From positions 1 through 51,649 of IMG/VR virus record IMGVR_UViG_3300048611_000030: a stretch of 51,649 nucleotides of DNA; one strand, written 5' to 3'. The translations under genes were made by a program, and so were the position numbers. This DNA comes from a virus. Lineage: Duplodnaviria > Caudoviricetes. How positions within the stretch are numbered: position 1 is the stretch's first letter; each line of letters begins with the position of its first letter. Under the pieces are notes generated by a model. That model searched no databases. It saw only the letters and a program-made list of their open reading frames with translations, and was not told where the DNA came from. Below, one piece after another: positions 554-51,077 of the stretch.

Positions 554-569
554 GTAGTCGCCCGACTAC
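554..569. repeat. Dispersed palindrome GTAGTC-gccc-GACTAC
   Basis: Directly after the TAA of the ligase gene. Confidence 0.95.
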
Positions 570-620
570 AGCCTACGGCGGGCTGCAAGCGCAGCTTGCC
601 CTACAAAGGAGAAGCTGAGT

Positions 621-1547
621 ATGTCATTCAACGAAAGTTCAGCGGAGTTGAATCATCGGTACGGAACTACCTTTATCGGTATCCGTAACGGTGAGGAAAT
701 ACTCCCTCTTTATGTACGTGAGTTTGGGGGGGAGAAGAAACGCACACGACTCATTACTGGGGCATTGTATCATCGGGCCAATGGGGCTATTGCGCATGAC
801 ATGGTTGCCAAGGAATACGATTTTGATGAGGTCGTCTGGGCAGCGCCCAAGTTGGGGTACATCCAATGTGCTGATAAAGTTACCAAGTTTGTTGTGCGGG
901 AACCGGAACCACGACCAGCTAAAATACGTGGCCTTAAGCCCAATCTGACAACCTATTGGTATTGGTCAAAGGAGCGTGTTGGCTTTACCAATCAACGAAT
1001 GTCGGACCTGTTTAACTACGGGGATGCATCGTGGGACATTTACTCGGTGTATAACCCGCAGTACCTCAGCGCAGAGGCAGCGTGGACTGCCATTCGTAAT
1101 GGGGAGTGGGTCGGGGCAGCACTAAGCAGAAACATAGCCCTGTACAAAACCAAGCACTCGAAGAATCCGCTTGTGTTTTACAAGGACCTTGCCGTAGGTT
1201 TGTACGACAAGGAAAGCAATAAGGCGTTTCTTCGTCCAGCCGCGCACATGCTGTTTGAGGAAATGTCAAACTACATGGCCTGCGAGAAGGTAGCTGGGGA
1301 GGAATTACCAAAACCAAAGCCGGAGCAGGTACCCAAGGCTCCCAAGTTCGCTGACGCACTTAAGGCACTTCGTGACGCGGAGGTAAGAGAAAGGGCGGTA
1401 CGTGTAGAGGGAGCAGCACACGTTCGCAATAACTTCGAGTGGATGGGGGATGTAGCTATTCCTAACATAGTTCAGGTAAAACTTGATGTAGGTGTAGTTG
1501 GCGAAAACGAAATCAATGAGGAGGATAACGATGAGCCAAATTGGTAA
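621..1547 (+). CDS. Hypothetical protein within the amidoligase operon
   Basis: 308-aa ORF with AGGAG RBS; no motif recognised. Confidence 0.8.
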   Translation: MSFNESSAELNHRYGTTFIGIRNGEEILPLYVREFGGEKKRTRLITGALYHRANGAIAHDMVAKEYDFDEVVWAAPKLGYIQCADKVTKFVVREPEPRPAKIRGLKPNLTTYWYWSKERVGFTNQRMSDLFNYGDASWDIYSVYNPQYLSAEAAWTAIRNGEWVGAALSRNIALYKTKHSKNPLVFYKDLAVGLYDKESNKAFLRPAAHMLFEEMSNYMACEKVAGEELPKPKPEQVPKAPKFADALKALRDAEVRERAVRVEGAAHVRNNFEWMGDVAIPNIVQVKLDVGVVGENEINEEDNDEPNW

Positions 1548-2463
1548 GCTGTTCGGCCACAAGGCGGACCCACGTACACACGGCGTTGACCAGCAATGGC
1601 CGATTCCCGATTGCTACATGGGGCTGGAGTTGGAATACGAAGGCGCTCAAAACAAGGATGTGGTACAGCAAAAGGTAAAGGCCAAGTATATTGAGTTCTC
1701 GGAGGATACATCCCTCCGTGGTCCCAATGTGGAGCTACGGGGCATACTGCCGTTGTCCGGTGCAGACTTAACCACGGCGCTCAACGAACTAACCATGATA
1801 GTTGCCGAGTTCAAACGGATAAACGGGGTGGATTTGGTACTCAACAAACGTACCAGTCTACATGCACACATGGACGTGCGGAACTTGGACTATGAGGAGT
1901 TTCGCCGATTCAAGATGCTGTGCATCATCTTCGAGCGCCCATTGATTCATTATTGCGCCCCTGATAGGGAGTACAATAACTTTTGCTTGCCAACGTACCG
2001 GGCGGAATCTCAGCGAGGCGTGTATGCTGATTTATTGTCCGGGGAACGGAACTTGCGCGACGCGATACCAGAAGCCAGCAAGTACATGGCCATCAACTTC
2101 CTTCCATTGGTAGAGTTTGGTAGCGTGGAGTTTCGTTCGCATCAGGGTTCTCTTGATATGAACGATGTGAGGGAGTGGGTGTGCATCATTCAGTGTCTCA
2201 AGAAAGCTGCTGTTGAAATGGTGTTTAACACTCCGACGGAGTTGTTGGTACACGTATCCAAACTTGGGGCAAAAGAGCTTGCAAAACAAGTGTTTGGTGC
2301 GTGGTTCGACAAGGTGGCGTACCCGGAGCTGGAGGTAGATGTCATGGACGGTGCACGCTTCGTGCAGGACTTGTTGCTGTACTATGACACACATATCAAT
2401 TCGCTGACTAAACCCGATCTGTCGTCGGTGGAAGAAGCAATTCAAAACTCACGTAGTCGGTAG
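1531..2463 (+). CDS. Putative amidoligase (COOH-NH2 ligase, Amidoligase_2-like)
   Basis: GLELEYE, EDTSLRG..VEL, RTSLHAHMD, KYMAIN, GSVEFRSHQG motifs; ATG 1531 with GAGGA RBS. Confidence 0.88.
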   Translation: MSQIGKLFGHKADPRTHGVDQQWPIPDCYMGLELEYEGAQNKDVVQQKVKAKYIEFSEDTSLRGPNVELRGILPLSGADLTTALNELTMIVAEFKRINGVDLVLNKRTSLHAHMDVRNLDYEEFRRFKMLCIIFERPLIHYCAPDREYNNFCLPTYRAESQRGVYADLLSGERNLRDAIPEASKYMAINFLPLVEFGSVEFRSHQGSLDMNDVREWVCIIQCLKKAAVEMVFNTPTELLVHVSKLGAKELAKQVFGAWFDKVAYPELEVDVMDGARFVQDLLLYYDTHINSLTKPDLSSVEEAIQNSRSR

Positions 2464-2468
2464 ACTAC
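2453..2468. repeat. Dispersed palindrome GTAGTC-ggta-GACTAC
   Basis: Contains the TAG stop of the amidoligase gene. Confidence 0.95.
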
Positions 2469-2493
2469 ATTTTATATTTAGGAGAACTGCTAT

Positions 2494-4041
2494 ATGTGCG
2501 GTATTCACGGATACGTAGGACAAGTTGGTTTTGGGGACACCAAACCATCCCGTATGAATCTTCGGGATTACGTAAAAGATGGGTTTGTAGCCAACATGCT
2601 TCGCGGGGTTCATTCCTCAGGCATGTTCGCCATCCCGGAGAAACACGAGGTTCAGGTGCCGGTCGTCAAGCGTAGTTACAACGGAATGGAATTCCTTGGG
2701 GTGCACGATACCAAAGAGTTGCTGAATGCGTACGCAGATATGCGCGGCTATGTGGCGCACTTGCGTTGGGCCACAAAAGGGAATGTGCACCGGGATAATG
2801 CACACCCGTTCCAGCATGGGCCAATAACAATGGTACATAACGGCACACTGTCCAACGAAAAAGAACTCGGTGACTGGAAGTTCGATACCGACAGCGAGTA
2901 CATCGCCAAGAGTTTGGCTGAGCGCCCTGACCCAAGAGACACCATCAAACTGCTGGATGGTGCCTTTGCCTTGGTGTGGCACGACGCTCGAACAGACAAG
3001 ATGTATATGACCCGCAACAAGGACAGAGAGTTGGGCTATGCGTACGTCAAGGGCAAGAACGCGTTTATGTTCGCAAGTGAATGGCCGATGATGCAATGGC
3101 TGGCGTGGCGCAACTACATCGAGTTGGAGGAAATCGAGGATGTTACTCCGTATGACATTCTGGAATTTCCGGTGGACGACCCTCGCTCTCGGGTAATTAT
3201 CAAAGCCGAGGCGTATGTTGCTCCCAAGTGGAATTACAGTCAGCGCAGCGCCAGCCCAACTGGAGGGGCTGGCAATACCATCCCTTTTACCAGAAAGGTT
3301 TTACCGACCGTGATTATGATGGGGAGTGGTGGGAATGGGGAGGTCCCTAAGGGCGTCCCGGAAAACCTGCATCCCGGAAAGGAAATCGAGTTCTCGGCAA
3401 TGGAAGTATTCCTCAAGGACCGGACCAGCCGTATGGGAACGCTTGAGGGTGTAATGGCCGATAAGCCCCACTGGCGGGTTGTGGCCCGTCAGGTAGATAT
3501 TCGCAAGTTCTCCGGCCTCAACCGAATGATCGGCAAGGTTATCGGGTACATCTGCTTGGAATCTCACTGGCCCACTGTGTACGTTGGGGATGCTAAGGAA
3601 TCCAAGACTCCCGATGTGGATAAAAACGGCAAGCACTTGGGCTATAACCGTCACTACAGGAAATACAAAGAGAATGAGCAGAATCCAATTCTCCTTGGCA
3701 TGGCGACCAAAAAATATGGAGAACAAGTGCCAATCATTGAGGGAGCGGCTACAAGGCTGGCTCCTTTTCTTGATGAGGAACGAGACCCCGATGCTGTGTT
3801 GGCAGAAGTACAATCTAAAAATGTGCCTATAACTGATTTACAATGGTTCCGAACCGTCAATGTAGATGGGCACCGAATGTCTGTGGAAGCCGCGCACAAT
3901 TTGTTAAAGACACAATGCGCGTGGTGTAGCGGGCATTTCAAGGACCTCAAGGATATTCGGTACGTTGGGGATTCAACAATCTGCTTTAGCAATTGTGGGG
4001 ATGCTATCCCGTTTCTCAAACATGGAACAACGGAGCACTAA
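2494..4041 (+). CDS. Class II (Ntn) glutamine amidotransferase with long C-terminal extension
   Basis: N-terminal MCGI, RGVHSSG, HLRWAT, NAHPF, HNGTL, DTDSE, GAFAL motifs; C-terminal CxxC...CxxxC. Confidence 0.92.
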   Translation: MCGIHGYVGQVGFGDTKPSRMNLRDYVKDGFVANMLRGVHSSGMFAIPEKHEVQVPVVKRSYNGMEFLGVHDTKELLNAYADMRGYVAHLRWATKGNVHRDNAHPFQHGPITMVHNGTLSNEKELGDWKFDTDSEYIAKSLAERPDPRDTIKLLDGAFALVWHDARTDKMYMTRNKDRELGYAYVKGKNAFMFASEWPMMQWLAWRNYIELEEIEDVTPYDILEFPVDDPRSRVIIKAEAYVAPKWNYSQRSASPTGGAGNTIPFTRKVLPTVIMMGSGGNGEVPKGVPENLHPGKEIEFSAMEVFLKDRTSRMGTLEGVMADKPHWRVVARQVDIRKFSGLNRMIGKVIGYICLESHWPTVYVGDAKESKTPDVDKNGKHLGYNRHYRKYKENEQNPILLGMATKKYGEQVPIIEGAATRLAPFLDEERDPDAVLAEVQSKNVPITDLQWFRTVNVDGHRMSVEAAHNLLKTQCAWCSGHFKDLKDIRYVGDSTICFSNCGDAIPFLKHGTTEH

Positions 4042-4043
4042 GA

Positions 4044-4787
4044 ATGACCTCTACGTATAAGGTTTATGTAAAGGAAAACAACAAGTCGCACAGGCATCTT
4101 ATTAAAGATGATGCTTGTTTTGGCAGGTTTTCGTGCCGCTATGGAGGCAGTACGTTTAATTATGGGCAATATAGACACGCCCCAGCCAATATACACACTA
4201 TACGGTATTACCCGGAACGGAGAGGCATTTCTGCGGAGGAGTGTGTTACGTGCTTCGAGGAATTGCAGGCCGCCATGCCGGAACTGCCGTGGCCCAAGAA
4301 AGGTAACTTTCTGGATTGGGAAAAGAAAGGAATGGCCGCATTTACGGACATTCCGGGTCAAGTCAGTATTGGGCTGTTTACGCTTGTTCGTTACGTAAAC
4401 GAGTATCCGGGGACTTTGCAGCAGTATCTCTTGATGCGTAAGGTACTCGGCGTTACACCATTACAGGCGCTGCATCTGGCGCATAACCTTAGTAGTGTGG
4501 ATGGAGGCATTAAATGGGATAACGTGGTTGGACATGCGGGGCACAGCATTATTCCGTCACATACACTACACGACAAGGTGTATAAACACTTTGTTGGAAA
4601 AAAGTGGGCGCTGGAAATGCAGAAACTTAAGCCCTACAAGGAGTACAATGATTACCAAGGAATCCACAAGCTATTCGCTGGAGACGATAATCCCTATAGA
4701 AAGGAACAGTGGTTTCCTCGGGATATGTACGGGATTACAGGAGAACAAATTATGAATCGTATTAACAAACTGGAGAACATAGGATGA
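4044..4787 (+). CDS. Hypothetical protein within the amidoligase operon
   Basis: ORF of about 247 aa, ATG 4044 with GGAG RBS, coupled to its neighbours. Confidence 0.75.
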   Translation: MTSTYKVYVKENNKSHRHLIKDDACFGRFSCRYGGSTFNYGQYRHAPANIHTIRYYPERRGISAEECVTCFEELQAAMPELPWPKKGNFLDWEKKGMAAFTDIPGQVSIGLFTLVRYVNEYPGTLQQYLLMRKVLGVTPLQALHLAHNLSSVDGGIKWDNVVGHAGHSIIPSHTLHDKVYKHFVGKKWALEMQKLKPYKEYNDYQGIHKLFAGDDNPYRKEQWFPRDMYGITGEQIMNRINKLENIG

Positions 4788-5440
4788 GCAAACCAACAAT
4801 ATTAGTTCTTGGTGATAAGGGGGATGGGTTACCATTCTTTCCGTGGGGCCATCTTCGCTTTTCGTACAAGGAGTATTACGCAACGCGTAGTGCTGAAAAT
4901 GTGGACGCCGTTGTGTTTACCGGAGGGACTGACGTAGACACGCGACTGTATGGGGAGGAGCGCGGGTCCTTCACAGGCAAGCCTGACGTATTCCGTGATG
5001 AGGTCGAGCGCCGCGTGTTCGATATTGCTATACGGCGCAAGATTCCCATGATGGGGATTTGTCGTGGCTCCCAGTTTGGGTGCGTTATGTCCGGCGGTAA
5101 GCTGTTCCAGCACGTATCCGGGCACGGCGTCCGTGGAGCTCATCCGGCCATGACAATTGATGGGGAGGAAATCCACGTTACCAGCACGCATCACCAGATG
5201 CTTAACGTGCGAGGCACGGACCATCAGGTGTTGGTGTGGGCATCCCCGACCAGATCAGAGCAGTATCTTGGGGAAGATGATGTTCCACAAACTCCTCCTG
5301 ATAAGGAACCGGAAGTGGTATGGTTTCCGCAAACCAAGTTCCTTGCGACGCAGTACCATCCGGAGTACATGGACGAGCAGACTACGGGATGGAAATATTA
5401 CCAGCGGTTGTTGGCTAACTATATCTTTGAAGGAATGTAG
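4784..5440 (+). CDS. Class I glutamine amidotransferase / peptidase C26 (gamma-glutamyl hydrolase-like)
   Basis: FTGGTDVD, GICRGSQ nucleophile elbow, STHHQ, QYHPE motifs. Confidence 0.92.
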   Translation: MSKPTILVLGDKGDGLPFFPWGHLRFSYKEYYATRSAENVDAVVFTGGTDVDTRLYGEERGSFTGKPDVFRDEVERRVFDIAIRRKIPMMGICRGSQFGCVMSGGKLFQHVSGHGVRGAHPAMTIDGEEIHVTSTHHQMLNVRGTDHQVLVWASPTRSEQYLGEDDVPQTPPDKEPEVVWFPQTKFLATQYHPEYMDEQTTGWKYYQRLLANYIFEGM

Positions 5441-5452
5441 TCTGCCGACTAC
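5437..5452. repeat. Dispersed palindrome GTAGTC-tgcc-GACTAC
   Basis: Supplies the TAG stop of the C26 gene; followed by GGAGG RBS. Confidence 0.95.
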
Positions 5453-5466
5453 ATTTGGAGGCTACG

Positions 5467-5805
5467 ATGCGTGTATTTGTTTACGGTACATTAAAGGTAG
5501 GATTCGGAAATAATTATTTGTTGGCCGCAGGAACCTACGTAGGTAAGGCTGTAACTGAACCAAAATATACCATGTACTCGGCGGGGCACTTTCCGTATGT
5601 CCGGATAGGAGGTAGTCAAAAAATACAAGGAGAGGTATTTGAAGTAAACGAAGTAACAGTTCGGCAGCTAGATCAGTTGGAGCAACATCCTAACTGGTAT
5701 AAGCGCCAAGTTGTACAAACCTCTCTCGGAGAGGCTTGGATGTATATAATGCCGCCTACTCAGCAAATGGGCGGAAATGAAGTCAAATCTGGTAACTGGA
5801 GGTAA
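5467..5805 (+). CDS. Gamma-glutamylcyclotransferase (AIG2-like)
   Basis: VFVYGTLK, GEVFEV, LDQLEQHPNWYKR, AWMY motifs. Confidence 0.92.
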   Translation: MRVFVYGTLKVGFGNNYLLAAGTYVGKAVTEPKYTMYSAGHFPYVRIGGSQKIQGEVFEVNEVTVRQLDQLEQHPNWYKRQVVQTSLGEAWMYIMPPTQQMGGNEVKSGNWR

Positions 5806-5807
5806 TC

Positions 5808-10923: not shown

Positions 10924-11099
10924 AGGCATACATAGCAAAGAGAGAATATGACTATGAAGGCTTTATTGTACTTGGGGTGTTTAGTACTAATACTTTAGCA
11001 GAGGCGGCATGTGAAAAAGACAAGGGAGATAGGAAACAGAGGAAGTGGCTTCCAGCAGATGGGTATTCTACGGAGGAATTTGTTGTTGATGAAACGTAG
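10920..11099 (+). CDS. Small hypothetical protein (59 aa, not in the ORF track)
   Basis: ATGA overlap with the helicase stop, GGAGG RBS; MKAYIAKREYDYEGFIVLGVFST...EEFVVDET*. Confidence 0.7.
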   Translation: MKAYIAKREYDYEGFIVLGVFSTNTLAEAACEKDKGDRKQRKWLPADGYSTEEFVVDET

Positions 11100-11111
11100 T
11101 CTGTAGACTAC
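11096..11111. repeat. Dispersed palindrome GTAGTC-tgta-GACTAC
   Basis: Supplies the TAG stop of the 10920 ORF; followed by AAAGGA RBS. Confidence 0.95.
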
Positions 11112-14935: not shown

Positions 14936-14951
14936 GTAGTCGGCCGACTAC
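14936..14951. repeat. Dispersed palindrome GTAGTC-ggcc-GACTAC
   Basis: Fills the gap between stop 14933 and ATG 14955. Confidence 0.95.
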
Positions 14952-20713: not shown

Positions 20714-20729
20714 GTAGTCTGCCGACTAC
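20714..20729. repeat. Dispersed palindrome GTAGTC-tgcc-GACTAC
   Basis: After the GNAT stop; flanked by A and T runs. Confidence 0.95.
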
Positions 20730-20768
20730 AATTTTACAACAACCAAATTAATAGGAGATTTATTACAA

Positions 20769-20972
20769 ATGTTTTTCCCCACTATTGCAAAAGTTCGTCG
20801 CAAGTTGGATTCTTTGATGGATGATCTTATTGTTATTGCAGACCAAGCGGCGCAGCGTGTTGACGATATTGAATCCGCTGTAGCCGTGCTTAATGTGAGA
20901 AAAGCCGAAGCGTACGCGGACAAAACCGAAGCGTTGCGCTTCCGTAGTTCCATCCTATCCAGAAAGAACTAA
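20769..20972 (+). CDS. Small coiled-coil protein, last gene of the plus arm
   Basis: AGGAG RBS; 67 aa. Confidence 0.7.
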   Translation: MFFPTIAKVRRKLDSLMDDLIVIADQAAQRVDDIESAVAVLNVRKAEAYADKTEALRFRSSILSRKN

Positions 20973-31421: not shown

Positions 31422-31672
31422 GCGTTAATAGTTAGTTGCGCTAACACCTTGGATGTATACTGGCCTTTGAGCACATCTGGAACTTCGCCTCCGCCATCGT
31501 ACCTAATAACGTACATACTTGATTGCGGGTTGAGCTTACCAACCACTAATTTACGTGGCTTACTTTCTACCGAAGTCGGGACGGTCTCCGGACTGGTTCC
31601 TATTTTGCCGCCATTGAGACGCTTGAGAACGCGTCCTACCGTCTCGGGCTTGCTTGGCAGAGGTTGGGTCAT
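31400..31672 (-). CDS. Small hypothetical protein between the tail tube genes
   Basis: YVIRYDGGGEVPDVLKGQYTS; overlaps tail tube A. Confidence 0.65.
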   Translation of the reverse strand: MTQPLPSKPETVGRVLKRLNGGKIGTSPETVPTSVESKPRKLVVGKLNPQSSMYVIRYDGGGEVPDVLKGQYTSKVLAQLTINAWLKRIA

Positions 31673-32312
31673 TGGTCTGTTTTAACCTTGTCATGCAGAT
31701 TGTTTTGGCTTCGGCCAGCAAAAAAGGAAACATTGCGGACGGAAGATCGGGGGTGAATGTGTCTGTCATAGACCATGTGGGTTCCTTGTATCCATGACAG
31801 GCAGTCTTGCTTCCTTGCAGATTTGCCTCTACTGCGCTGTCGTAGGAATCGAAGTAGATGTACTCATCATCGAACGAGGTCCAATATGTCGGTTCCACAT
31901 CATTGCGTATAAGCAACGCCACGCTGTTCTCTGTTACAATATCAATAGTAGAATCAGATGAGTTTCTAAGATATGTCATGGAGGCAAATTCTTCCGGAGT
32001 CTTGTAGATAATATCCTTGTACTCTTTATCCGTATCCCCGGAGTCTATACAATTGTACTTTATCCACAGCACTTCCTGAATGGTGTCAGGAATAAGCATC
32101 TTTGTAGGTGTAGCTGAAACAGCAGAGTCCAATGTAAACAAAGTACCAAGCCACGGGCGGTCCCGCTGACTAAGCATAAAGGCATACGTGGACTTGATGA
32201 TCTGCGCGACCTGCAAAGATTCGGCTGTATCCGAAATGCTGTTTACCGCATCCGAGGACATGTCGGACATGATGTCCTGCACCATATCCAGCAACGTCAT
32301 TTTCAGACTCAT
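31560..32312 (-). CDS. Tail tubular protein A (adaptor)
   Basis: MTLLDMVQDI...VNSISDT.ES.QVA, PTYWTSFDD, FTPDLP motifs. Confidence 0.85.
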   Translation of the reverse strand: MSLKMTLLDMVQDIMSDMSSDAVNSISDTAESLQVAQIIKSTYAFMLSQRDRPWLGTLFTLDSAVSATPTKMLIPDTIQEVLWIKYNCIDSGDTDKEYKDIIYKTPEEFASMTYLRNSSDSTIDIVTENSVALLIRNDVEPTYWTSFDDEYIYFDSYDSAVEANLQGSKTACHGYKEPTWSMTDTFTPDLPSAMFPFLLAEAKTICMTRLKQTNDPTSAKQARDGRTRSQASQWRQNRNQSGDRPDFGRK

Positions 32313-32327: not shown

Positions 32328-32343
32328 GTAGTCGGCCGACTAC
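32328..32343. repeat. Dispersed palindrome GTAGTC-ggcc-GACTAC (only copy in the structural arm)
   Basis: Between stop 32346 and the GAGG RBS of tail tube A on the minus strand. Confidence 0.95.
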
Positions 32344-32345: not shown

Positions 32346-32591
32346 TTAATCAGCGATCAAACCGTGAGCACGCATCGCGGCAAGAATCGAGTTGACCTTA
32401 CCCCCAAGAACACCTACAGCAGTTTCAAGTTCATCCACAGTTGGAGTGGCGCTGGTTGTCAACGCACTTCCTGTGAGTGTTGCTCCATCAAGAGCATCGG
32501 TACAGTCGGCAATAGCTGACTGACGGTCGCCAATCTGGCCGTTGTCATTGCTATCCACAAGTTTGGTTTTGCTATCTACGGGTTGTGTCAT
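32346..32591 (-). CDS. Small head fibre / decoration protein
   Basis: C-terminal KVNSILAAMRAHGLIA typical of head-fibre proteins. Confidence 0.65.
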   Translation of the reverse strand: MTQPVDSKTKLVDSNDNGQIGDRQSAIADCTDALDGATLTGSALTTSATPTVDELETAVGVLGGKVNSILAAMRAHGLIAD

Positions 32592-45460: not shown

Positions 45461-45476
45461 GTAGTCGGCCGACTAC
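45461..45476. repeat. Dispersed palindrome GTAGTC-ggcc-GACTAC
   Basis: Non-coding leader. Confidence 0.95.
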
Positions 45477-45696: not shown

Positions 45697-45708
45697 CATG
45701 GCAAACGG

Positions 45709-45724: not shown

Positions 45725-45763
45725 ATTCCTTATATATACGCGTGAGGGAGGGGCAGCAGGTTT

Positions 45764-45779
45764 GTAGTCGGCAGACTAC
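45764..45779. repeat. Dispersed palindrome GTAGTC-ggca-GACTAC
   Basis: Upstream of promoter 45797. Confidence 0.95.
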
Positions 45780-45796
45780 ATACCGTGATAGTTTGC

Positions 45797-45825
45797 TTGC
45801 ATTGTTCTTTGTTCTGTGCTCTAAT
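45797..45825 (+). promoter_or_regulatory. sigma70-like early promoter
   Basis: TTGCAT-N17-TCTAAT with TGn; bracketed by two palindromes. Confidence 0.5.
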
Positions 45826-45859
45826 GTGCGTATGGTCAATCAATACCGATTGGCCGAAC

Positions 45860-45875
45860 GTAGTCGGCAGACTAC
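45860..45875. repeat. Dispersed palindrome GTAGTC-ggca-GACTAC
   Basis: Just before the AGGAG RBS of the first early gene. Confidence 0.95.
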
Positions 45876-45894
45876 ATCAACAGGAGATAACATC

Positions 45895-46644: not shown

Positions 46645-46660
46645 CAGGTAGATAGGGATT

Positions 46661-46692
46661 GCCGGGGGTTAACAGCCCCCGGCCTTTTCTTT
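46661..46692 (+). terminator. Intrinsic terminator
   Basis: GCCGGGGG...CCCCCGGC followed by CTTTTCTTT. Confidence 0.85.
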
Positions 46693-46748
46693 ATCATCAA
46701 TCCTTTTGATGATAGTACGCGATCACACGGATATAGACGGGAGGCATT

Positions 46749-46868
46749 ATGAGCGGCATTGATCTATTGTTGTACTTTGTAATAGGCGGGATTATCAGCA
46801 TAGCTGAATTACTGCTACCCTTGCTTATTATCGGTGTAATCGGGCATTATCTTTTAACTCTGTATTGA
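46749..46868 (+). CDS. 39-aa hydrophobic membrane peptide (not in the ORF track)
   Basis: GGAGG RBS; MSGIDLLLYFVIGGIISIAELLLPLLIIGVIGHYLLTLY*. Confidence 0.65.
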   Translation: MSGIDLLLYFVIGGIISIAELLLPLLIIGVIGHYLLTLY

Positions 46869-46869
46869 T

Positions 46870-46885
46870 GTAGTCGGCAGACTAC
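46870..46885. repeat. Dispersed palindrome GTAGTC-ggca-GACTAC
   Basis: Between TGA 46868 and the AAAGGA RBS. Confidence 0.95.
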
Positions 46886-46900
46886 AAAGGAACGGACACA

Positions 46901-47278
46901 ATGAACTGCGAACTTATGATATTTGTAGGACTGTTGTTAGTGGCTGTATCTGGCGCGGCTACCATGTTTTTTGGAGCCATGCTGCCCAAGGATGATATGC
47001 CCTATGACTCAGAGAAAATACGCTGCGATCTGGAGCTAGTGCAAACAATGCGCCGCCGCCATGCCGAGACATACGACAACGCAACCGCGATGGCGCGACT
47101 CGCGCAACCGGGAGAGATTGCCGCCTTGCCGGATGGTTCCCTTGCCATTAAGGTATTCCGCAAGTATGGCAGCGTCAACGATGGGTATTTATTGGGCGAT
47201 GGTTCCATTCGTGAGCTAGGGGCGGAAATGCCGGTAGCTGGATTGTTGCGCGGACCTTTTCACGAGGGGAGGGACTAA
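46901..47278 (+). CDS. Early membrane-anchored hypothetical protein
   Basis: N-terminal TM helix; RBS present. Confidence 0.7.
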   Translation: MNCELMIFVGLLLVAVSGAATMFFGAMLPKDDMPYDSEKIRCDLELVQTMRRRHAETYDNATAMARLAQPGEIAALPDGSLAIKVFRKYGSVNDGYLLGDGSIRELGAEMPVAGLLRGPFHEGRD

Positions 47279-47526
47279 TGGCAACCAAGATACCGAATAG
47301 GCGGAAGAATTGCCGCCGCCCTGAGGAGTGCGCCTATACTTACACTGTCTCTATTTGTGGCGGCAAGGGGTACAGGGTATGGGACGCACAAATTACCGTA
47401 ACCGCTATGGATATTCGCGATGCCATTGATACAACGACCGCACGTTGCGACCGCGCGGCAGACAAAGGTGTGCAACCTGATTACTGGCCTTATTACTGGA
47501 TTGTAAGCGTGGAGCAAAACGACTGA
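47278..47526 (+). CDS. Early hypothetical protein
   Basis: TAATG coupling; GGAG RBS. Confidence 0.65.
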   Translation: MATKIPNRRKNCRRPEECAYTYTVSICGGKGYRVWDAQITVTAMDIRDAIDTTTARCDRAADKGVQPDYWPYYWIVSVEQND

Positions 47527-47559
47527 CCGACTTCATCGGGCGCAATGCCCACAACAATT

Positions 47560-47589
47560 AACCCGGCCCAAAAAGCCGGGTTCTTTTTT
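47560..47589 (+). terminator. Intrinsic terminator
   Basis: AACCCGGC-ccaaaaa-GCCGGGTT followed by CTTTTTT. Confidence 0.85.
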
Positions 47590-47603
47590 GCCCACAATTT
47601 ATT

Positions 47604-47619
47604 GTAGTCGGTAGACTAC
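47604..47619. repeat. Dispersed palindrome GTAGTC-ggta-GACTAC
   Basis: After the terminator, upstream of the HTH ORF. Confidence 0.95.
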
Positions 47620-47666
47620 ATAGCACCATAGAAAATGGTGATAGTACGTGTCACAAGGATAGAGAT

Positions 47667-47846
47667 ATGAGCCGCCCATTAAACAGAGATAGGATAATTG
47701 AACTACTGAATAAGGGATTGCCTGTGCCTGCCATTGTTGGGCGGGGATTAGGTAGTGCATCCCGCGTCAGAGAGATTAAGCGAAAGCTACCGAAACAAAT
47801 GATAGTAAGCCACACGGATGCAGCCACGGATAAAGCATTGATTTGA
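47667..47846 (+). CDS. 59-aa helix-turn-helix-like protein (not in the ORF track)
   Basis: AAGGA RBS; MSRPLNRDRIIELLNKGLPVPAIVGRGLGSASRVREIKRKL... Confidence 0.6.
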   Translation: MSRPLNRDRIIELLNKGLPVPAIVGRGLGSASRVREIKRKLPKQMIVSHTDAATDKALI

Positions 47847-47847
47847 T

Positions 47848-47876
47848 TTGACAAATAGCTTTATTTGTGGTACAAT
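47848..47876 (+). promoter_or_regulatory. sigma70 early promoter
   Basis: TTGACA-N17-TACAAT with TGn. Confidence 0.85.
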
Positions 47877-47956
47877 GTTTTTGTGAAATGGAGCTACGCA
47901 CGCACAGACGTGTATGCATTCCTTTTATACGTGCGAAGCGCAACTAAAAATATTAT

Positions 47957-47972
47957 GTAGTCGGCAGACTAC
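47957..47972. repeat. Dispersed palindrome GTAGTC-ggca-GACTAC
   Basis: Before the AAAGGA RBS. Confidence 0.95.
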
Positions 47973-47985
47973 AAAGGAAGATGCT

Positions 47986-48231
47986 ATGATCGTGAGAATA
48001 ATACGGCGCAGCGTTGTGCATGGTATTGATTTCCGCAACGGAGACAATATCGAGGTAGAACAATTCACCGGCGGCAGTCCGGAGATAATAAACACGGCGA
48101 TGGCAACCGCCAAGAAGAAAAGCAAAAAGAACCGCAACTGGTACTACGGCACCGAAGTTTGGCACGAACACCTTCAATCATGGATTAGCCGCCATATGTA
48201 CTACAATGGCTATCCCATCCTTTCCAGATAA
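47986..48231 (+). CDS. Early hypothetical protein
   Basis: ATG 47986; bracketed by palindromes. Confidence 0.7.
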   Translation: MIVRIIRRSVVHGIDFRNGDNIEVEQFTGGSPEIINTAMATAKKKSKKNRNWYYGTEVWHEHLQSWISRHMYYNGYPILSR

Positions 48232-48234
48232 CCT

Positions 48235-48250
48235 GTAGTCTGCCGACTAC
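48235..48250. repeat. Dispersed palindrome GTAGTC-tgcc-GACTAC
   Basis: Between stop 48231 and the GGAGG RBS. Confidence 0.95.
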
Positions 48251-48266
48251 ATCCCAACGGAGGTTA

Positions 48267-48587
48267 ATGCACATGCAATATGGCTCATACAATATACAGC
48301 CGGGAGATTATCTGCCCGGAGCAAGGTCGTGCCGAGTATGGATTAAATACGCGGCTGCTCTGCGCCTCGCTGTTGGAGTACAGCAGCCACCGGCAGGAAT
48401 GGTATACACCGAGGACGATTTATACTATCAATTCGGAAATGGGCGTACCTGTTACGGAGTGAATGAGGCCGTACTAAATGACTATCCGGCCATAGCCGAG
48501 AAGCTGCTATTCGCCAAGCGGCCTTTAGTTGTTGTGGCGGCAAAAGAAAAGTATGACCCCATTATGTTTTTTATTGGAGAGTGCTAA
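48267..48587 (+). CDS. Early hypothetical protein
   Basis: GGAGG RBS; 106 aa. Confidence 0.7.
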   Translation: MHMQYGSYNIQPGDYLPGARSCRVWIKYAAALRLAVGVQQPPAGMVYTEDDLYYQFGNGRTCYGVNEAVLNDYPAIAEKLLFAKRPLVVVAAKEKYDPIMFFIGEC

Positions 48588-48588
48588 C

Positions 48589-48912
48589 ATGACACAAGCA
48601 AACTTAGGTGGTAAAGAGCCGCACAACATTGGTGCAACAATATCCAGCGGTGCAATTGACAGCATCGCTGTTGTCTTGCATACGGGATTCAATGCCCTGT
48701 GCGAGTGCGGGCTGGATGCAAAATCAATGACCCTTGTGGATGATGTGTACGCCATGACGGTCAACGCCCTTGCCGATGTGATTGAGAAAGGCAATCCTGC
48801 CTTCGATAAAAAGAAGTTCCTTATTGCCGTATGGGCAAGCGACCGCAAGATCAATACACCGGAACCGCCCGAACGTGCTGAGCCGGGTTCGCACATTCAC
48901 GACGAGGACTAA
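48589..48912 (+). CDS. Early hypothetical protein
   Basis: GGAG RBS; LADVI...NPAFDKKKFL.A motif seen in small phage proteins. Confidence 0.75.
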   Translation: MTQANLGGKEPHNIGATISSGAIDSIAVVLHTGFNALCECGLDAKSMTLVDDVYAMTVNALADVIEKGNPAFDKKKFLIAVWASDRKINTPEPPERAEPGSHIHDED

Positions 48913-48913
48913 T

Positions 48914-48929
48914 GTAGTCTACCGACTAC
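48914..48929. repeat. Dispersed palindrome GTAGTC-tacc-GACTAC
   Basis: Between stop 48912 and the GGAGG RBS. Confidence 0.95.
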
Positions 48930-48946
48930 AATTGGAGGATACAGCC

Positions 48947-49114
48947 ATGCCTATTCAAGATACACCGGAGGTAAAGAGAGCGATTATGCACGATCTTCTG
49001 GTGGAATGGCTGAAACAAGTGGACGTATCGCCGGAGGTCGTGCAACAACTGGTTGTAGGATATTGCAAGCGTAACAAGCGGGCATATCCTACACCCCCCA
49101 TTTTCATTGACTAA
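48947..49114 (+). CDS. Early hypothetical protein (55 aa)
   Basis: GGAGG RBS, ATG 48947. Confidence 0.65.
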   Translation: MPIQDTPEVKRAIMHDLLVEWLKQVDVSPEVVQQLVVGYCKRNKRAYPTPPIFID

Positions 49115-49131
49115 CACGGAGGCAATTTACT

Positions 49132-49371
49132 ATGCGTAAAATACAAGTGTATCAGCCGAACAAAATCCCGGAAGAACCGCCATTATTCTTTCAATTGGTG
49201 CCATATCAGGACGGAGTTGATCTGGTACTTGTAAACGAGGCTGGAGTCCGAATGACCAGCGGAAAGATTCTCCGAGTCACGCATAATGGAACCATCGAAC
49301 GGTATTTTAGTGTCGGAAAGGAACACGGACTGCCATTGGACGCGAATGGTGCCGTTGTTGTGGAGCGTTGA
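49132..49371 (+). CDS. Early hypothetical protein
   Basis: GGAGG RBS; 79 aa. Confidence 0.75.
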   Translation: MRKIQVYQPNKIPEEPPLFFQLVPYQDGVDLVLVNEAGVRMTSGKILRVTHNGTIERYFSVGKEHGLPLDANGAVVVER

Positions 49372-49375
49372 TGCC

Positions 49376-49570
49376 ATGAAACAGATGGACTACCCGCATC
49401 ATTCGGAGCCTCAGATGATTAAGCGCATTGGCCGTATGATGATGCGCCGTTGGGGCAACAAGAATAACGCCAAGCAAGACGGAGAATGTCCGCACGCTAT
49501 GTACCAGCATATACGCACGCAGCTTATGACGTACTTTCCGCGTACGGACTACTTCACAACTGGTTCGTAG
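49376..49570 (+). CDS. Early hypothetical protein
   Basis: GGAG RBS, ATG 49376. Confidence 0.6.
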   Translation: MKQMDYPHHSEPQMIKRIGRMMMRRWGNKNNAKQDGECPHAMYQHIRTQLMTYFPRTDYFTTGS

Positions 49571-49582
49571 TCGGCCGACTAC
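49567..49582. repeat. Dispersed palindrome GTAGTC-ggcc-GACTAC
   Basis: Supplies the TAG stop of the 49376 ORF. Confidence 0.95.
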
Positions 49583-49617
49583 ATATGGCCGACATTCTTC
49601 CTTCCTTTCTCCTATAA

Positions 49618-50049
49618 ATGAGCAGGAACACAATGAGCGCACAAGCTGCACAAAGTAAATACAGGAACTCAGCAAATGGAAAGGCGGTAAGAGCTATATA
49701 TAACCGGAGCGCCAAGAGAAAAGCCCAACGGGCGGCGTACCAACGCTCACAGAAAGGGAAGGAAGCGGATTATAGGGGCAGGCTTAAATATACTCATGGA
49801 ATAACTATAGAGGACTATTTCGTTATGCTTAATCAGCAAGGAGGAAAATGTGCTATCTGCGAAACAACCGTGCCTACAGTGCATAAACGATTTCATATTG
49901 ACCATTGCCACGAAACAGGAAAGATTCGTGGTTTATTGTGCCACGGCTGTAATGTTGGTTTGGGCTATTTCAAAGAAAACGTAACAGCATTAAAAAATGC
50001 CGTAGTTTACTTAACTAAGGCTAGCGCAGAGGATGCGCCGCGTGTCTGA
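49618..50049 (+). CDS. Endonuclease VII-family HNH homing endonuclease
   Basis: HGITIEDY..ML..QGGKCAIC, HIDHCHETGKIRGLLCHGCNVGLG.F. Confidence 0.9.
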   Translation: MSRNTMSAQAAQSKYRNSANGKAVRAIYNRSAKRKAQRAAYQRSQKGKEADYRGRLKYTHGITIEDYFVMLNQQGGKCAICETTVPTVHKRFHIDHCHETGKIRGLLCHGCNVGLGYFKENVTALKNAVVYLTKASAEDAPRV

Positions 50050-50266
50050 TACTTGGTATTATTCACGGATACCGCATCCGTGGATTCAAATGCACATACT
50101 GGCAGAGGATGATGAGCATTTAATTGCAGAACAACGTGGGGCACCGTATCTCATAATGAAAGAATCCGGCATGGGATACGGATTGCCCTTACCGCTGCCA
50201 GAGGTAGAGAATAAGGAGTTACTTACGTGGGCTAAAAGCACAGCAATTCGCTTGATGCTTAACTAA
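50033..50266 (+). CDS. Hypothetical protein
   Basis: 77-aa ORF; start uncertain. Confidence 0.5.
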   Translation: MRRVSDTWYYSRIPHPWIQMHILAEDDEHLIAEQRGAPYLIMKESGMGYGLPLPLPEVENKELLTWAKSTAIRLMLN

Positions 50267-50315
50267 GTAGCATATAAAGTTGTACTATTGTTGTATTTTA
50301 TAAGGGATACACGCT

Positions 50316-50558
50316 ATGATAAACGCAGCTTTGTCTCTTGCCGTACCGTCCCACCAAGCCAGTAGCAAGACGCAACATTGGTCTTTCACCGTCAGCTTTG
50401 TTGACAATACTGGAATCCCTCGCTGGTCTGTTACCAGCCCCCCGAAGTATGATTCAAAAGGCGAGGCGTTGTATTTTGCCTACGCTGCCGCGCAGCAACG
50501 GGGATTTACTCCCGCTGCCCGCGGAATCAGTATCACTACCAAGCAATACAAAGAGTAA
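50316..50558 (+). CDS. Hypothetical protein
   Basis: AAGGGA RBS; 80 aa. Confidence 0.55.
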   Translation: MINAALSLAVPSHQASSKTQHWSFTVSFVDNTGIPRWSVTSPPKYDSKGEALYFAYAAAQQRGFTPAARGISITTKQYKE

Positions 50559-50676
50559 CGCGCACTATATCAAGTGATGATAGTTCATCATCGCCGGATG
50601 TAGGGCAAGCTATCGCTTGCATACAGCGTTAGCTGTTGTCGCACGTCCAGAAACCAACTAAATAGGAGATACAATC

Positions 50677-51060
50677 GTGGCAAGGTATGAAAACAAGCAG
50701 TACGAAGCAAGATGTGATGTAACCGAAATGCCGGGGAATTGCGGCATGGCGATTGTGTACCAATTCAACACAGGTTTGCCAGCAAGCGCATCCAGCAAGG
50801 AGGCCAAGGACCTGTACAAAGGGCTGTACCGTGAAATCGTGTCGGAAACCTCCAATGCTACCGTGATATACGTCACGGATAAGGTTGGTGGCAAAGTGGA
50901 AAAGTTTGCCAAGGCAATGGGATTCACGAAGGTCCACCGCCCGGTGCTGAACCGCCACACGAAAAACAACATCGTGTCGTATTACAAGACGGTTACGAAA
51001 GCTGAATACGAAAAGGCGTGTAAGGATATCCAAGACGCGGACGACAGGGAATGGAACTAA
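50677..51060 (+). CDS. Hypothetical protein, possibly a minimal GNAT-like fold
   Basis: AGGAG RBS with GTG; PGNCG, FAKAMGF..V, NRHTKNNI. Confidence 0.7.
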   Translation: MARYENKQYEARCDVTEMPGNCGMAIVYQFNTGLPASASSKEAKDLYKGLYREIVSETSNATVIYVTDKVGGKVEKFAKAMGFTKVHRPVLNRHTKNNIVSYYKTVTKAEYEKACKDIQDADDREWN

Positions 51061-51061
51061 T

Positions 51062-51077
51062 GTAGTCTGCCGACTAC
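51062..51077. repeat. Dispersed palindrome GTAGTC-tgcc-GACTAC
   Basis: After stop 51060, before the ligase operon. Confidence 0.95.

What the first reader, a model, noticed from the sequence alone, without database searches (positions are those of the whole stretch)
554..51077. Seventeen copies of a 16-bp palindrome GTAGTC-N4-GACTAC punctuate gene junctions
Seen: core starts at 554, 2453, 5437, 11096, 14936, 20714, 32328, 45461, 45764, 45860, 46870, 47604, 47957, 48235, 48914, 49567 and 51062. The arms are invariant and often extend to TGTAGTC...GACTACA. The centres are ggca x4, tgcc x4, ggcc x4, ggta x2, tacc, gccc and tgta, so both orientations occur on the transcribed strand. The typical layout is stop codon, palindrome, RBS, ATG; in four cases the element supplies the TAG stop, and the single minus-arm copy has the same layout. 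I saw none in mid-gene. Ten copies fall within the first 5.6 kb of the early arm and density decays along it. Inference: orientation independence favours a DNA site for a dimeric protein, such as a genome-wide early-gene operator, DNA entry/protection site or nucleoid-organising site. Alternatives are a recombination site delimiting exchangeable single-gene cassettes (attC-like) or an RNA processing hairpin. This is the best candidate for an undescribed system.
Basis: partly seen in the sequence, partly recalled or inferred. Interest (0 to 1): 0.9.

Follow-up and report, generated by a model that had tools for sequence, protein, structure and literature searches.

The report
Invariant 16-bp palindrome punctuating phage genes

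Summary

The window is a circularly assembled T7-supergroup podovirus of 51.5 kb, and I found no RNA polymerase gene. Sixteen of 18 copies are essentially non-coding and 17 of 18 lie in the early/middle (+) arm. No copy has one mismatch.

The closest relative, G001 (about 70% nt identity), has 14 copies with identical arms. Eight sit at orthologous places, including the primase-internal one, and all have different centres. Nine more distant relatives have none.

The same arms recur in an unrelated phage lineage (G006-G009, L133, L185, L187). There I also found 3-nt spacers and symmetric arm variants. No protein shared by the two lineages could be found apart from the terminase.

My best reading, at 0.45, is a double-stranded DNA site for a symmetric dimeric protein acting inside early operons, in the manner of a stoperator. 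A sequence-specifically read hairpin (0.30) and a recombination linker (0.10) remain open.

The closest known kind is the unexplained 17-bp palindrome of Cluster O mycobacteriophages. I class this as a new variant of a known kind, with moderately high interest.

The parts
554..569 (.). copy, centre GCCC; between the ligase gene (51142->551) and gene 621-1547
   Evidence: context; ortholog G001 3475
2453..2468 (.). copy, centre GGTA; overlaps the last 11 nt of the amidoligase gene 1531-2463; next start 2494
   Evidence: ortholog G001 5264
5437..5452 (.). copy, centre TGCC; supplies the TAG stop of 4784-5440. The next gene, 5467-5805 (GGCT), is absent from G001
   Evidence: a blastn block ends at 5453; ortholog G001 8282
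   Evidence: ortholog G001 11590 keeps the arms, including their codon third positions
11096..11111 (.). copy, centre TGTA; supplies the TAG stop of 10920-11099; next start 11124
   Evidence: ortholog G001 13386, where it follows the helicase directly
14936..14951 (.). copy, centre GGCC; fills the 21-nt gap between 14613-14933 and the 5'-3' exonuclease gene 14955-15818
   Evidence: ortholog G001 16574
20714..20729 (.). copy, centre TGCC; at the point where the + and - arms converge; holds the stop of the minus-strand gene 20953..20726
   Evidence: ortholog G001 22404
32328..32343 (.). the only minus-arm copy, centre GGCC; between 32591..32346 and tail tubular protein A 32312..31560
   Evidence: G001 has a non-palindromic 12-mer here instead
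45461..45476 (.). copy, centre GGCC; in the 760-bp non-coding control region between the two divergent arms
45764..45779 (.). copy, centre GGCA; control region, downstream of the promoter-like site 45618-45646
45860..45875 (.). copy, centre GGCA; 19 nt upstream of the first early gene 45895-46644
46870..46885 (.). copy, centre GGCA; between 46749-46868 and 46901-47278
47604..47619 (.). copy, centre GGTA; 22 nt after the terminator-like hairpin 47560-47582, upstream of the small gene 47667-47846 that looks HTH-like by eye
47957..47972 (.). copy, centre GGCA; about 80 nt downstream of the best sigma-70-like site (47848-47876); 13 nt before start 47986
   Evidence: ortholog G001 467
48235..48250 (.). 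copy, centre TGCC; followed by the G000-specific gene 48267-48587
48914..48929 (.). copy, centre TACC; followed by the G000-specific genes 48947-49570
49567..49582 (.). copy, centre GGCC; supplies the TAG stop of 49376-49570. The HNH gene 49618-50049 just downstream is absent in a variant in run X2
51062..51077 (.). copy, centre TGCC; between 50677-51060 and the ligase gene 51142->551

Best explanation
The element is a 16-bp site made of two inverted GTAGTC half-sites whose centres lie 10 bp apart. I read it as double-stranded DNA bound by a symmetric, probably dimeric, sequence-specific protein. It marks the early/middle transcription arm: a cluster of three copies in the control region at the head of the arm, then single copies in the gaps between gene modules.

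The inferred action is that of operators placed inside operons. Occupancy would slow or block host RNA polymerase, or organise this arm, and so set the level or timing of each module. This resembles the stoperators of Cluster A mycobacteriophages, except that the site is symmetric. Because the site is an exact 16-bp identity at many junctions, it also serves secondarily as a micro-homology where genes are gained and lost.

Shown here:
- the copies exist and are exact;
- they are placed at gene junctions;
- they are biased to one arm;
- the arms are under purifying selection across diverged genomes;
- only the inverted pair at fixed spacing matters, not single half-sites.

Inferred, not shown:
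- that the form read is duplex DNA;
- that the effect is on transcription.

The reader protein is unidentified. Whether it is a phage or a host protein is open.
For: Existence and exactness:
- 18 exact copies against 0.01 expected.
- None with one mismatch.
- Isolated half-sites occur at chance frequency: 15 in G000, against a median of 24 for hexamers of the same composition. Only the pair is selected.

Spacing:
- N4 in 70 of 74 paired sites across 10 sequences; no spacing of 0-2 or 5-15. This puts both half-sites on one face of the helix.

Placement:
- 16 of 18 copies are non-coding, P about 1e-18; 17 of 18 are in the + arm.
- Three copies lie in the non-coding control region of G000.
- In the unrelated lineage B, 2-3 copies likewise sit directly after the first early gene.

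Conservation:
- G001 (65-84% identical in blastn blocks) keeps the 12 arm bases unchanged in 14 copies.
- By my mapping coordinates, 8 of them lie at places orthologous to G000 copies, including the one inside the primase gene.

Half-site behaviour:
- Sites with one variant half-site lie in normal junction contexts, for example G006 10407 and 11331 and G007 11021. As hairpins these would carry mismatches within the stem.
- Only 1 of 13 one-mismatch variants is G-U compatible.
- The centres of G000 and G001 are near-palindromic: GGCC x4 and GGCA/TGCC x9 in G000; TATA x3 and TACA/TGTA x11 in G001.

Precedent:
- The same 18-bp palindrome occurs as tandem pairs between divergent TetR-family and TauD genes in Mycobacterium and Nocardia. 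This exact shape is therefore used as an HTH-dimer operator elsewhere.
- The authors of the closest analogue read its symmetry the same way (PMC4351075, section 8).
Against: No reader was found:
- Pfam and PHROGs gave no DNA-binding family for any early protein scanned. About 15 small ORFs were never scanned.
- No protein is shared by the two motif-bearing lineages except the terminase, a small protein also present in motif-less relatives, and a zinc-ribbon resemblance.
- The first early protein, gp45895, has a confident helical core but no PDB fold match.
- The one HTH-looking protein, 47667-47846, has no counterpart in G001.

Features that fit a hairpin better:
- Four sites in L133 and L187 have a 3-nt spacer in the canonical stop-motif-SD-start layout. 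A rigid dimer should not tolerate this.
- 6 of 20 two-mismatch variants change both arms in a complementary way, against about 3% expected.
- At one orthologous site, G006 has a mismatched arm pair and L135 a restored pair.

Other difficulties:
- Most copies are far from any promoter-like site. This led the Cluster O authors to doubt a transcriptional role.
- All orthologous centres differ between G000 and G001. An unread spacer would not be expected to change in concert.
Confidence: 0.45

Rival explanations
1. The functional form is a stem-loop, most likely in the polycistronic early/middle mRNA: a 6-7 bp stem and a 3-4 nt unread loop. A sequence-specific RNA-binding protein or endoribonuclease reads the stem. 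It would cut the transcript into units, protect 3' ends, or gate translation of the next cistron, whose Shine-Dalgarno sequence usually starts 2-10 nt after the stem.
For: - The 3-nt and 4-nt centres are both used, in identical contexts.
- Symmetric double arm variants are enriched: 6 of 20 against about 3%.
- A pairing-restoring change separates G006 11331 from L135 2881.
- The centre sequence is free across lineages.
- The element starts within about 4 nt of the upstream stop codon, or contains it, in 12 of 18 copies, and lies 3-25 nt before the next start in most.
- The hairpin is in the minimum-free-energy fold in 6 of 6 contexts folded.
- Identical arms in two phage lineages with no shared early genes would fit a conserved host RNA-processing factor.
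Against: - The stem sequence is invariant where a purely structural hairpin would drift. Only 1 of 13 one-mismatch variants is G-U compatible.
- Variants with mismatches within the stem sit in normal contexts.
- z-scores for 61-nt contexts are weak, -0.95 to -3.67, and 4 of 6 are above -2.
- A 6-bp stem is too short for RNase III (recalled knowledge).
- Copies in the control region precede no cistron.
- No RNA data exist for this phage.
Confidence: 0.3
2. The primary role is recombinational. The exact 16-bp identity at gene junctions serves as a linker at which single genes or small modules are exchanged, inserted or deleted among co-infecting phages. This would be like PeSL cassettes of T4-type phages or integron attC sites. 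Any regulatory effect would be secondary.
For: G000-specific genes begin right after a copy at:
- 5437 (GGCT gene);
- 48235;
- 48914;
- 47604;
- 11096.

Other support:
- A variant in another soil run lacks the HNH gene that starts 35 nt after copy 49567, and its alignment breaks 1 nt after the element.
- G001 copy 9292 is a clean indel of about 19 nt relative to G000.
- In lineage B the hypervariable stretch between families F2 and F3 alternates unique genes with motif copies.
- Cluster O phages show deletions between two copies of their repeat. PeSLs mediate such shuffling (PMC2839356, abstract and section 13).
- The phage encodes a T7-type endonuclease I and a 5'-3' exonuclease.
Against: - By my rough count, only about 4-6 of 10 accessory blocks in the + arm abut a copy, where about a third of junctions carry one anyway.
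- The block 7401-8898 of G000-specific genes has no copy.
- The real HNH deletion boundary lies about 17 nt from the element (table 5c).
- Alignments tend to break at the element simply because it is a conserved island.
- No tyrosine or serine recombinase or transposase family was hit in any scan.
- No gene is shared between the two lineages inside motif-bounded units.
- Selection for evolvability alone would not hold 12 bases invariant at 30% divergence, nor a copy inside the primase gene.
Confidence: 0.1
3. The element is a single-stranded DNA hairpin or cruciform used in DNA metabolism. It could be a recognition signal for the phage primase/helicase on the lagging-strand template, or a pause or initiation site. 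The copies are about one Okazaki-fragment length apart.
For: - The hairpin-type evidence is as above.
- The absence of G-U-type variants fits DNA rather than RNA pairing.
- G000 and G001 share a replication module (primase, helicase, polymerase) that is absent from the motif-less relatives G002-G005.
- One conserved copy lies inside the primase gene.
Against: - There is no reason for such signals to avoid coding sequence or the late arm, which must also be replicated.
- Lineage B has the motif with no detectable homologue of that replication module.
- A 6-bp palindrome extrudes poorly (recalled knowledge).
Confidence: 0.07

Closest known systems
17-bp dyad repeat of Cluster O mycobacteriophages (Corndog and relatives), TGTTCGG-NNN-CCGAACA as printed in PMC4351075
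   Same: - A short inverted repeat with invariant arms and a variable short centre.
- Tens of copies per genome (34 in Corndog).
- No meaningful orientation.
- Copies concentrated in the short gaps of one long operon.
- Sites conserved in position among relatives.
- Some indels lie between copies.
- Function unknown; the authors suggest a dimeric protein but doubt promoter control (section 8 read).
   Different: - A different sequence, with 7+3+7 against 6+4+6 geometry.
- About a third of Corndog sites are clearly inside genes, against 1 of 18 here.
- Corndog is a siphovirus of an actinobacterial host.
- The Corndog repeat is reported as confined to that cluster, whereas this one recurs in an unrelated phage lineage.
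   Same: - Many near-identical short sites spread through transcribed regions.
- They mostly lie in short intergenic gaps.
- They are thought to act by blocking elongating polymerase.
   Different: - Stoperators are asymmetric and orientation-dependent.
- They are read by the immunity repressor of a temperate phage.
- Here the site is symmetric, and no repressor or integrase family was hit.
PeSL cassettes of T4-type phages (PMC2839356, abstract and section 13 read)
   Same: - Repeated motifs in the gap between a stop codon and the next Shine-Dalgarno sequence.
- They are concentrated among small early ORFans.
- They are associated with gene gain and loss.
   Different: - PeSLs are composites of a strong sigma-70 promoter and a terminator stem-loop.
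- Here most gaps (21-45 nt) hold nothing but the palindrome.
- Promoter-like sites are not enriched in the early region: 13 found against 10.3 expected.
- At most 4 of 18 copies have 4 or more T in the next 8 nt.
SAS/ESAS repeats of Cluster K mycobacteriophages (PMC3203893, passages read)
   Same: - Conserved repeats tied to translation start regions of a subset of genes.
- ESAS are inverted repeats just upstream.
- Function unknown.
   Different: - SAS is an asymmetric 13-mer in one orientation.
- ESAS arms are 17 bp, imperfect, and have a 4-13 bp spacer.
TetR-family operators in Mycobacterium and Nocardia (tandem TGTAGTC-N4-GACTACA between TetR and TauD genes)
   Same: The identical 18-bp palindrome, in a textbook operator position.
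   Different: - A chromosomal, single-locus use.
- No TetR-family protein was found in the phage.
- Probably an independent use of the same sequence.

Membership tests
Dispersed invariant palindromic repeats of phage genomes (Cluster O type; a descriptive kind) | Short inverted repeat with invariant arms and a variable centre | tested here: met
   The 12 arm bases are identical in 18 of 18 copies. There are 7 different centres.
Dispersed invariant palindromic repeats of phage genomes (Cluster O type; a descriptive kind) | Many copies per genome, far above chance, at conserved positions in relatives | tested here: met
   18 copies against 0.01 expected. G001 has 14 copies, 8 at orthologous places.
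Dispersed invariant palindromic repeats of phage genomes (Cluster O type; a descriptive kind) | The Cluster O sequence itself | tested here: not met
   The arms are GTAGTC, not the Cluster O arms printed in PMC4351075. It is the same kind but not the same family.
Stoperator (Cluster A mycobacteriophage) | Asymmetric site in one orientation relative to transcription | tested here: not met
   The arms form a perfect dyad. GGCA (x4) and TGCC (x5) centres both occur on the sense strand.
Stoperator (Cluster A mycobacteriophage) | Bound by the phage immunity repressor; temperate life style | tested here: inconclusive
   No repressor or integrase family was hit among 60 window ORF translations scanned (ten of them in both libraries). 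About 15 small ORFs were not scanned, and binding cannot be tested here.
PeSL (T4-type promoter-early stem-loop) | Sigma-70 promoter joined to the stem-loop | tested here: not met
   There were 13 promoter-like sites against 10.3 expected in 44900-51649, and none lies immediately upstream of a copy (one weak 9-of-12 match, 47961-47990, overlaps copy 47957). Gaps such as 14934-14954 hold only the palindrome.
Intrinsic (rho-independent) terminator | G+C-rich hairpin followed by a U tract | tested here: not met
   Only 4 of 18 copies have 4 or more T in the next 8 nt (2453, 20714, 51062 and, read on its own strand, 32328). The T/A-tract context at 20714 is not kept in G001 22404.
Integron attC | A 57-141 nt imperfect palindrome with paired core sites, read by an IntI integrase | tested here: not met
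   The element is 16-18 bp and perfect. No integrase family was hit. The attC dimensions are recalled.
REP/RAYT-type host repeats | Hundreds of copies in the host chromosome plus a RAYT transposase | tested here: inconclusive
The host is unknown.
T7-like single-subunit RNA polymerase promoter | An asymmetric conserved promoter of about 20 bp and a phage RNA polymerase gene | tested here: not met
   No RNA polymerase family was hit in any large ORF. The element is symmetric.

The most novel reading that the evidence does not exclude
The palindrome is the recognition mark of a 'gene punctuation' system that crosses phage lineages. A still unknown, sequence-specific factor, from a common host or from a fast-evolving phage gene, would read a 16-nt stem-loop or dyad placed after stop codons. 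It would either cut early polycistronic transcripts into single-gene units or mobilise single-gene cassettes between unrelated lytic phages. That would be an integron-like or tRNA-punctuation-like logic not described for phages.
Probability: 0.15. Interest if true: 0.85.

Novelty: new variant of a known kind. Interest (0 to 1): 0.6.

Why it matters
Dispersed, perfectly conserved palindromes have been noted in a few phage clusters, and the Cluster O paper read here leaves their function unexplained. This case adds four things:
- near-exclusive placement at gene junctions of the early/middle arm;
- an all-or-none sequence constraint that is held across about 30% nucleotide divergence, and even inside a gene;
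- the same arms in two phage lineages with no shared early genes;
- natural variants (3-nt spacers, symmetric arm changes, single-half-site changes) that give ready-made test constructs for telling a DNA dimer site from a hairpin.

It might also explain the mycobacteriophage repeats.

Tried and rejected
Chance or artefact: rejected.

Promoter:
- I saw no -10-like hexamer at a fixed distance downstream when reading.

Terminator: there is no U tract.

DNA-uptake-like single site: isolated half-sites occur at chance level.

Host repeat:
- The scan of species genomes gave scattered single hits, TetR-operator pairs in actinobacteria, a 59-bp tandem repeat in a Haliscomenobacter MAG and three copies on a Methylotenera-binned contig.

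Search for the reader protein:
- PHROGs and Pfam on 60 window ORF translations, ten of them in both libraries.
- tblastn, blastp, phmmer and pair-HMM searches between lineage A and lineage B.
- hhalign of 72 A alignments against 4 B clusters, then 27 A alignments against 18 more B clusters.
- The best hit was a zinc-ribbon resemblance (probability 74.7%, 28 columns) between 7584-7847 and a small lineage-B protein. From memory it looks TraR/DksA-like, so not a DNA reader.
- A lineage-B protein beside a motif copy (G006 1589-2026) has a sub-threshold winged-helix (z-alpha) hit of 17.6 bits against a cut-off of 21. It was not found in G001 or in four cultured relatives.

gp45895:
- One hit (itself) in the word-indexed search and 17 in the full HMMER search.
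- AF2 gave pLDDT 78.9.
- The best Foldseek PDB hit had E 1.6 and TM 0.12, so there is no usable match.
- The Atlas gave only unnamed viral clusters.
- The single distant relative found in IMG/VR has no GTAGTC motif.

Cultured relatives:
- By terminase these were HTVC027P, 023Pt_psg01, DSL-LC04 and MinM2 for lineage B, and CRP-5 for lineage A.
- They have 0 exact copies; CRP-5 has one 1-mismatch site.

Expression: no RNA holder was listed for this phage, and only DNA contigs could be laid. Nothing can be said about transcript ends.

An orientation switch of asymmetric centres along the arm looked suggestive in G000 but runs the opposite way in G001, so I dropped it.

Literature:
- A text search for the arm hexamers returned 1,025 papers. 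The 20 listed looked unrelated and were probably matched through primer sequences.
- A concept search returned one unrelated paper.
- I therefore cannot claim the motif is unpublished beyond these two searches.
- Supplements were not opened.
- phiC31 CIR sites, KorB and ParB sites, and N4 hairpin promoters were considered from memory only and not tested.

Full report
WHAT THE WINDOW IS

The window is a whole IMG/VR virus record. Bases 1-126 repeat at 51512-51637, so the assembly is circular or permuted, with a unique length of 51,511 bp. The last 12 nt look like a fold-back artefact.

Genes on the minus strand (20726-44989) are a T7-supergroup podovirus structural set:
- large terminase, 54-57% identical to terminases of Roseobacter, Lentibacter and Celeribacter phages;
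- portal;
- major capsid protein;
- tail tubular proteins A and B;
- a 1598-aa ORF at the place where T7 has its internal virion proteins (place recalled; it was not itself scanned).

The plus strand (45180 through the ends to 20709) carries, in order:
- small early ORFans;
- an amidoligase, glutamine-amidotransferase and ATP-grasp cluster;
- primase, helicase and DNA polymerase;
- a putative SSB (read by eye: OB-like N-terminus, acidic C-tail);
- a 5'-3' exonuclease and a T7-type endonuclease I.

No RNA polymerase, integrase or repressor family was hit.

THE OBSERVATION

GTAGTC-N4-GACTAC occurs 18 times, and shuffles give 0.01. It missed 9124-9139.

Allowing mismatches adds no copy with one mismatch, two with two, and 17 with three. 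That last figure is background level. Single GTAGTC hexamers outside the pairs occur at chance frequency. No spacing other than 4 occurs in the window. The selected unit is therefore the inverted pair at fixed spacing.

With my gene list (94% coding):
- 16 of 18 copies have at most 4 nt in an ORF (P about 1e-18);
- one copy overlaps a gene end by 11 nt;
- one copy (9124) is fully inside the primase ORF, in frame.

Seventeen of 18 copies lie in the plus arm (P = 1.6e-4 by length). Because that arm also holds 72% of the non-coding bases, the excess is modest once this is allowed for (about 0.03 by my own arithmetic).

The usual layout is this. The upstream stop codon is 0-4 nt before the element or inside it. 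The element follows. Then comes a Shine-Dalgarno sequence, with the start codon 3-25 nt after the element. The A/T-rich 5' flanks are just those stop codons.

Three copies lie in the 760-bp non-coding region between the divergent arms. They flank sigma-70-like sites.

RELATIVES

The closest relative is G001, with 92% capsid identity and blastn blocks of 65-84% identity in the same gene order. It has 14 copies, all exact in the arms, all in its early/middle arm, with centres TACA, TGTA or TATA.

By mapping coordinates I pair eight copies (G000/G001):
- 554/3475
- 2453/5264
- 5437/8282
- 9124/11590
- 11096/13386
- 14936/16574
- 20714/22404
- 47957/467

The primase-internal copy keeps its arm bases, including codon third positions, while the protein is only 56% identical. 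That is a constraint at the nucleic-acid level.

Every orthologous centre differs between the two phages.

Copies also turn over. G001 9292 is a clean indel of about 19 nt relative to G000. G000 32328 is replaced by a non-palindromic 12-mer in G001.

Nine more distant relatives by capsid protein have no copy, even with one mismatch allowed: G002-G005 at about 60% identity and G011-G015 at about 65-70%. Two of those nine records are 39-57% complete... more exactly, three of G011-G015 are incomplete. G002-G005 also lack homologues of the G000/G001 replication genes.

A SECOND, UNRELATED LINEAGE

A scan of IMG/VR for the T/A-extended form found 97 stretches. Most were single hits, but several contigs carry many copies:
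- G006 has 9, G007 has 7, G008 has 4 and G009 has 4;
- L185 has 9, L187 has 5 and L133 has 4.

These contigs are related to each other, with 40-80% amino-acid identity and G+C of 40-58%. Their terminase places them near Pelagibacter phage HTVC027P and allies. They share nothing with the window except a distant terminase.

In them too the copies sit in one co-oriented arm next to the terminase genes. Positions are conserved among members: the F4|F5, F5|F6 and F6|F7 junctions, and a cluster of 2-3 copies after the first gene F2. Copies also alternate with unique small genes in a hypervariable stretch.

Four cultured relatives of this lineage, and CRP-5 for lineage A, have no exact copy.

VARIANTS THAT BEAR ON MECHANISM

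I counted variants across 12 sequences (295,704 bases, with some near-duplicate contigs). There are 82 exact sites, 13 with one mismatch (0.6 expected) and 20 with two (10.5 expected).

- Of the 13 one-mismatch variants, only one is G-U compatible. Several lie in normal junction or control-region contexts. This looks like independent half-sites of a duplex site.
- Of the 20 two-mismatch variants, six change both arms in a complementary way. About 3% would do so by chance.
- At one orthologous site, G006 has a mismatched arm pair and L135 a restored pair.
- Four sites in L133 and L187 have a 3-nt centre with the canonical layout.

The last three points look like a pairing (hairpin) constraint. 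The RNA hairpin is in the predicted minimum-free-energy fold in 6 of 6 contexts, but the z-scores are weak.

WHO READS IT

I could not find out.
- Family scans of the early proteins were blank.
- BLAST, HMM and profile-profile comparisons found no protein common to the two lineages.
- The first early protein (45895-46644) is preceded by two copies that flank a promoter-like site. It belongs to a small family of 17 members and has a confidently modelled helical core, but it has no PDB fold match.
- 47667-47846 looks HTH-like by eye but is absent from G001.
- In bacterial genomes the 18-bp form is mostly a singleton (among the 80 of at least 120 stretches shown). In Mycobacterium and Nocardia it occurs as tandem pairs between divergent TetR-family and TauD genes. 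This shows that an HTH dimer can use this exact sequence as an operator. It does not identify the phage's reader.

GENE FLUX

G000-specific genes start right after copies at 5437, 11096, 47604, 48235 and 48914.

Contigs of another soil run show a variant that lacks the HNH gene just downstream of copy 49567. That variant also skips gene 49132-49371. The true HNH boundary is about 17 nt from the element, and the 49132-49371 skip lies at gene boundaries rather than at a copy.

The association is real but not clearly stronger than expected for an element that sits at a third of the junctions.

COMPARISON WITH WHAT IS KNOWN

- The closest described thing is the 17-bp dyad repeat of Cluster O mycobacteriophages. 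It has invariant 7-bp arms, a variable 3-nt centre, 34 copies and no orientation. It is enriched in the gaps of one operon, is conserved among relatives, shows occasional deletions between copies, and its function is unknown (PMC4351075; passages and section 8 read).
- PeSLs (PMC2839356; abstract and section 13) share the junction position and the link to gene flux. They are promoter-plus-terminator composites, which these are not.
- SAS/ESAS (PMC3203893; passages) share the start-site association but are asymmetric or imperfect.
- Stoperators (recalled) share the logic of sites placed inside operons but are asymmetric.

VERDICT

The finding is a real, strongly selected element of a kind already noticed but never explained. 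My odds are:
- duplex operator-like site for a symmetric protein: 0.45;
- sequence-specifically read hairpin: 0.30;
- recombination linker as the primary role: 0.10;
- single-stranded DNA replication signal: 0.07;
- other: the remainder.

The cross-lineage identity of the arms, the all-or-none constraint and the natural spacer and arm variants make it a good experimental target.

Noticed in passing
window 1-126 and 51512-51649: Bases 1-126 repeat at 51512-51637, so the assembly is circular. The last 12 nt (51638-51649) are the reverse complement of 51616-51628, and the source-run contig continues differently after 51637. This is probably a fold-back artefact at the contig end.
   Followed up: partly
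window 51142->551, 1531-6659: A cluster of peptide-ligase-type genes: a phiEco32-like COOH-NH2 ligase, an amidoligase, two glutamine amidotransferases, a gamma-glutamyl cyclotransferase (absent from G001) and a RimK-like ATP-grasp enzyme. It suggests synthesis of a peptide-like metabolite or modification.
   Followed up: no
window 7054-7392, 16366-17073, 17111-17641: MazG-like pyrophosphohydrolase, a weak YfbR-like hit, and a protein with the dATP/dGTP diphosphohydrolase N-terminal domain. These point to control of the nucleotide pool and perhaps to non-canonical DNA bases.
   Followed up: no
window 49584-50055 and 49132-49375: Contigs of another soil run (X2) skip the HNH/endonuclease-VII-like gene. 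The downstream gene then starts at an ATG 2 nt after the palindrome, in frame with 50033-50266. This looks like a free-standing homing-endonuclease insertion. Gene 49132-49371 is also skipped there, with low support.
   Followed up: partly
window 6709-6726; G001 about 9225-9242: A different perfect 18-bp palindrome lies just after a sigma-70-like sequence. Its inner 12 bases match the G001-type motif. Its arms differ from the orthologous G001 palindrome at three mirrored positions, so the arms covary.
   Followed up: partly
window 45786, 47640, 50578; G001 303, 2036, 10129, 50226: The 8-mer TGATAGTT (with one variant ending) recurs in non-coding early regions of G000 and G001. Similar words recur in G002 and G003. 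It may be a promoter-type motif of this phage group.
   Followed up: no
window 44307-44616 (minus strand): Four tRNA genes in a row (Ala-TGC, Thr-TGT, Cys-GCA, Gly-TCC) lie between the first minus-arm gene and the rest of the arm.
   Followed up: no
L222 2812-2853, L258 3246-3295, and similar loci: In Mycobacterium and Nocardia genomes, two tandem copies of the same 18-bp palindrome lie between divergent TetR-family and TauD-family genes. They are presumably that TetR's operator.
   Followed up: partly
L225 3417-3679: A Haliscomenobacter MAG holds a tandem repeat with a period of 59-68 bp. Each unit contains the palindrome.
   Followed up: no
window 7584-7847; G006 9448-9717 and its lineage-B family: Both phage lineages encode a small CxxC...CxxC zinc-ribbon protein (hhalign probability 74.7% over 28 columns). 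From memory it resembles TraR/DksA-type polymerase-binding factors.
   Followed up: partly
L331 38-71 and 2010-2025: The only IMG/VR locus found with a distant relative of gp45895 has two copies of another 16-bp perfect palindrome. One lies about 240 bp upstream of that gene.
   Followed up: no
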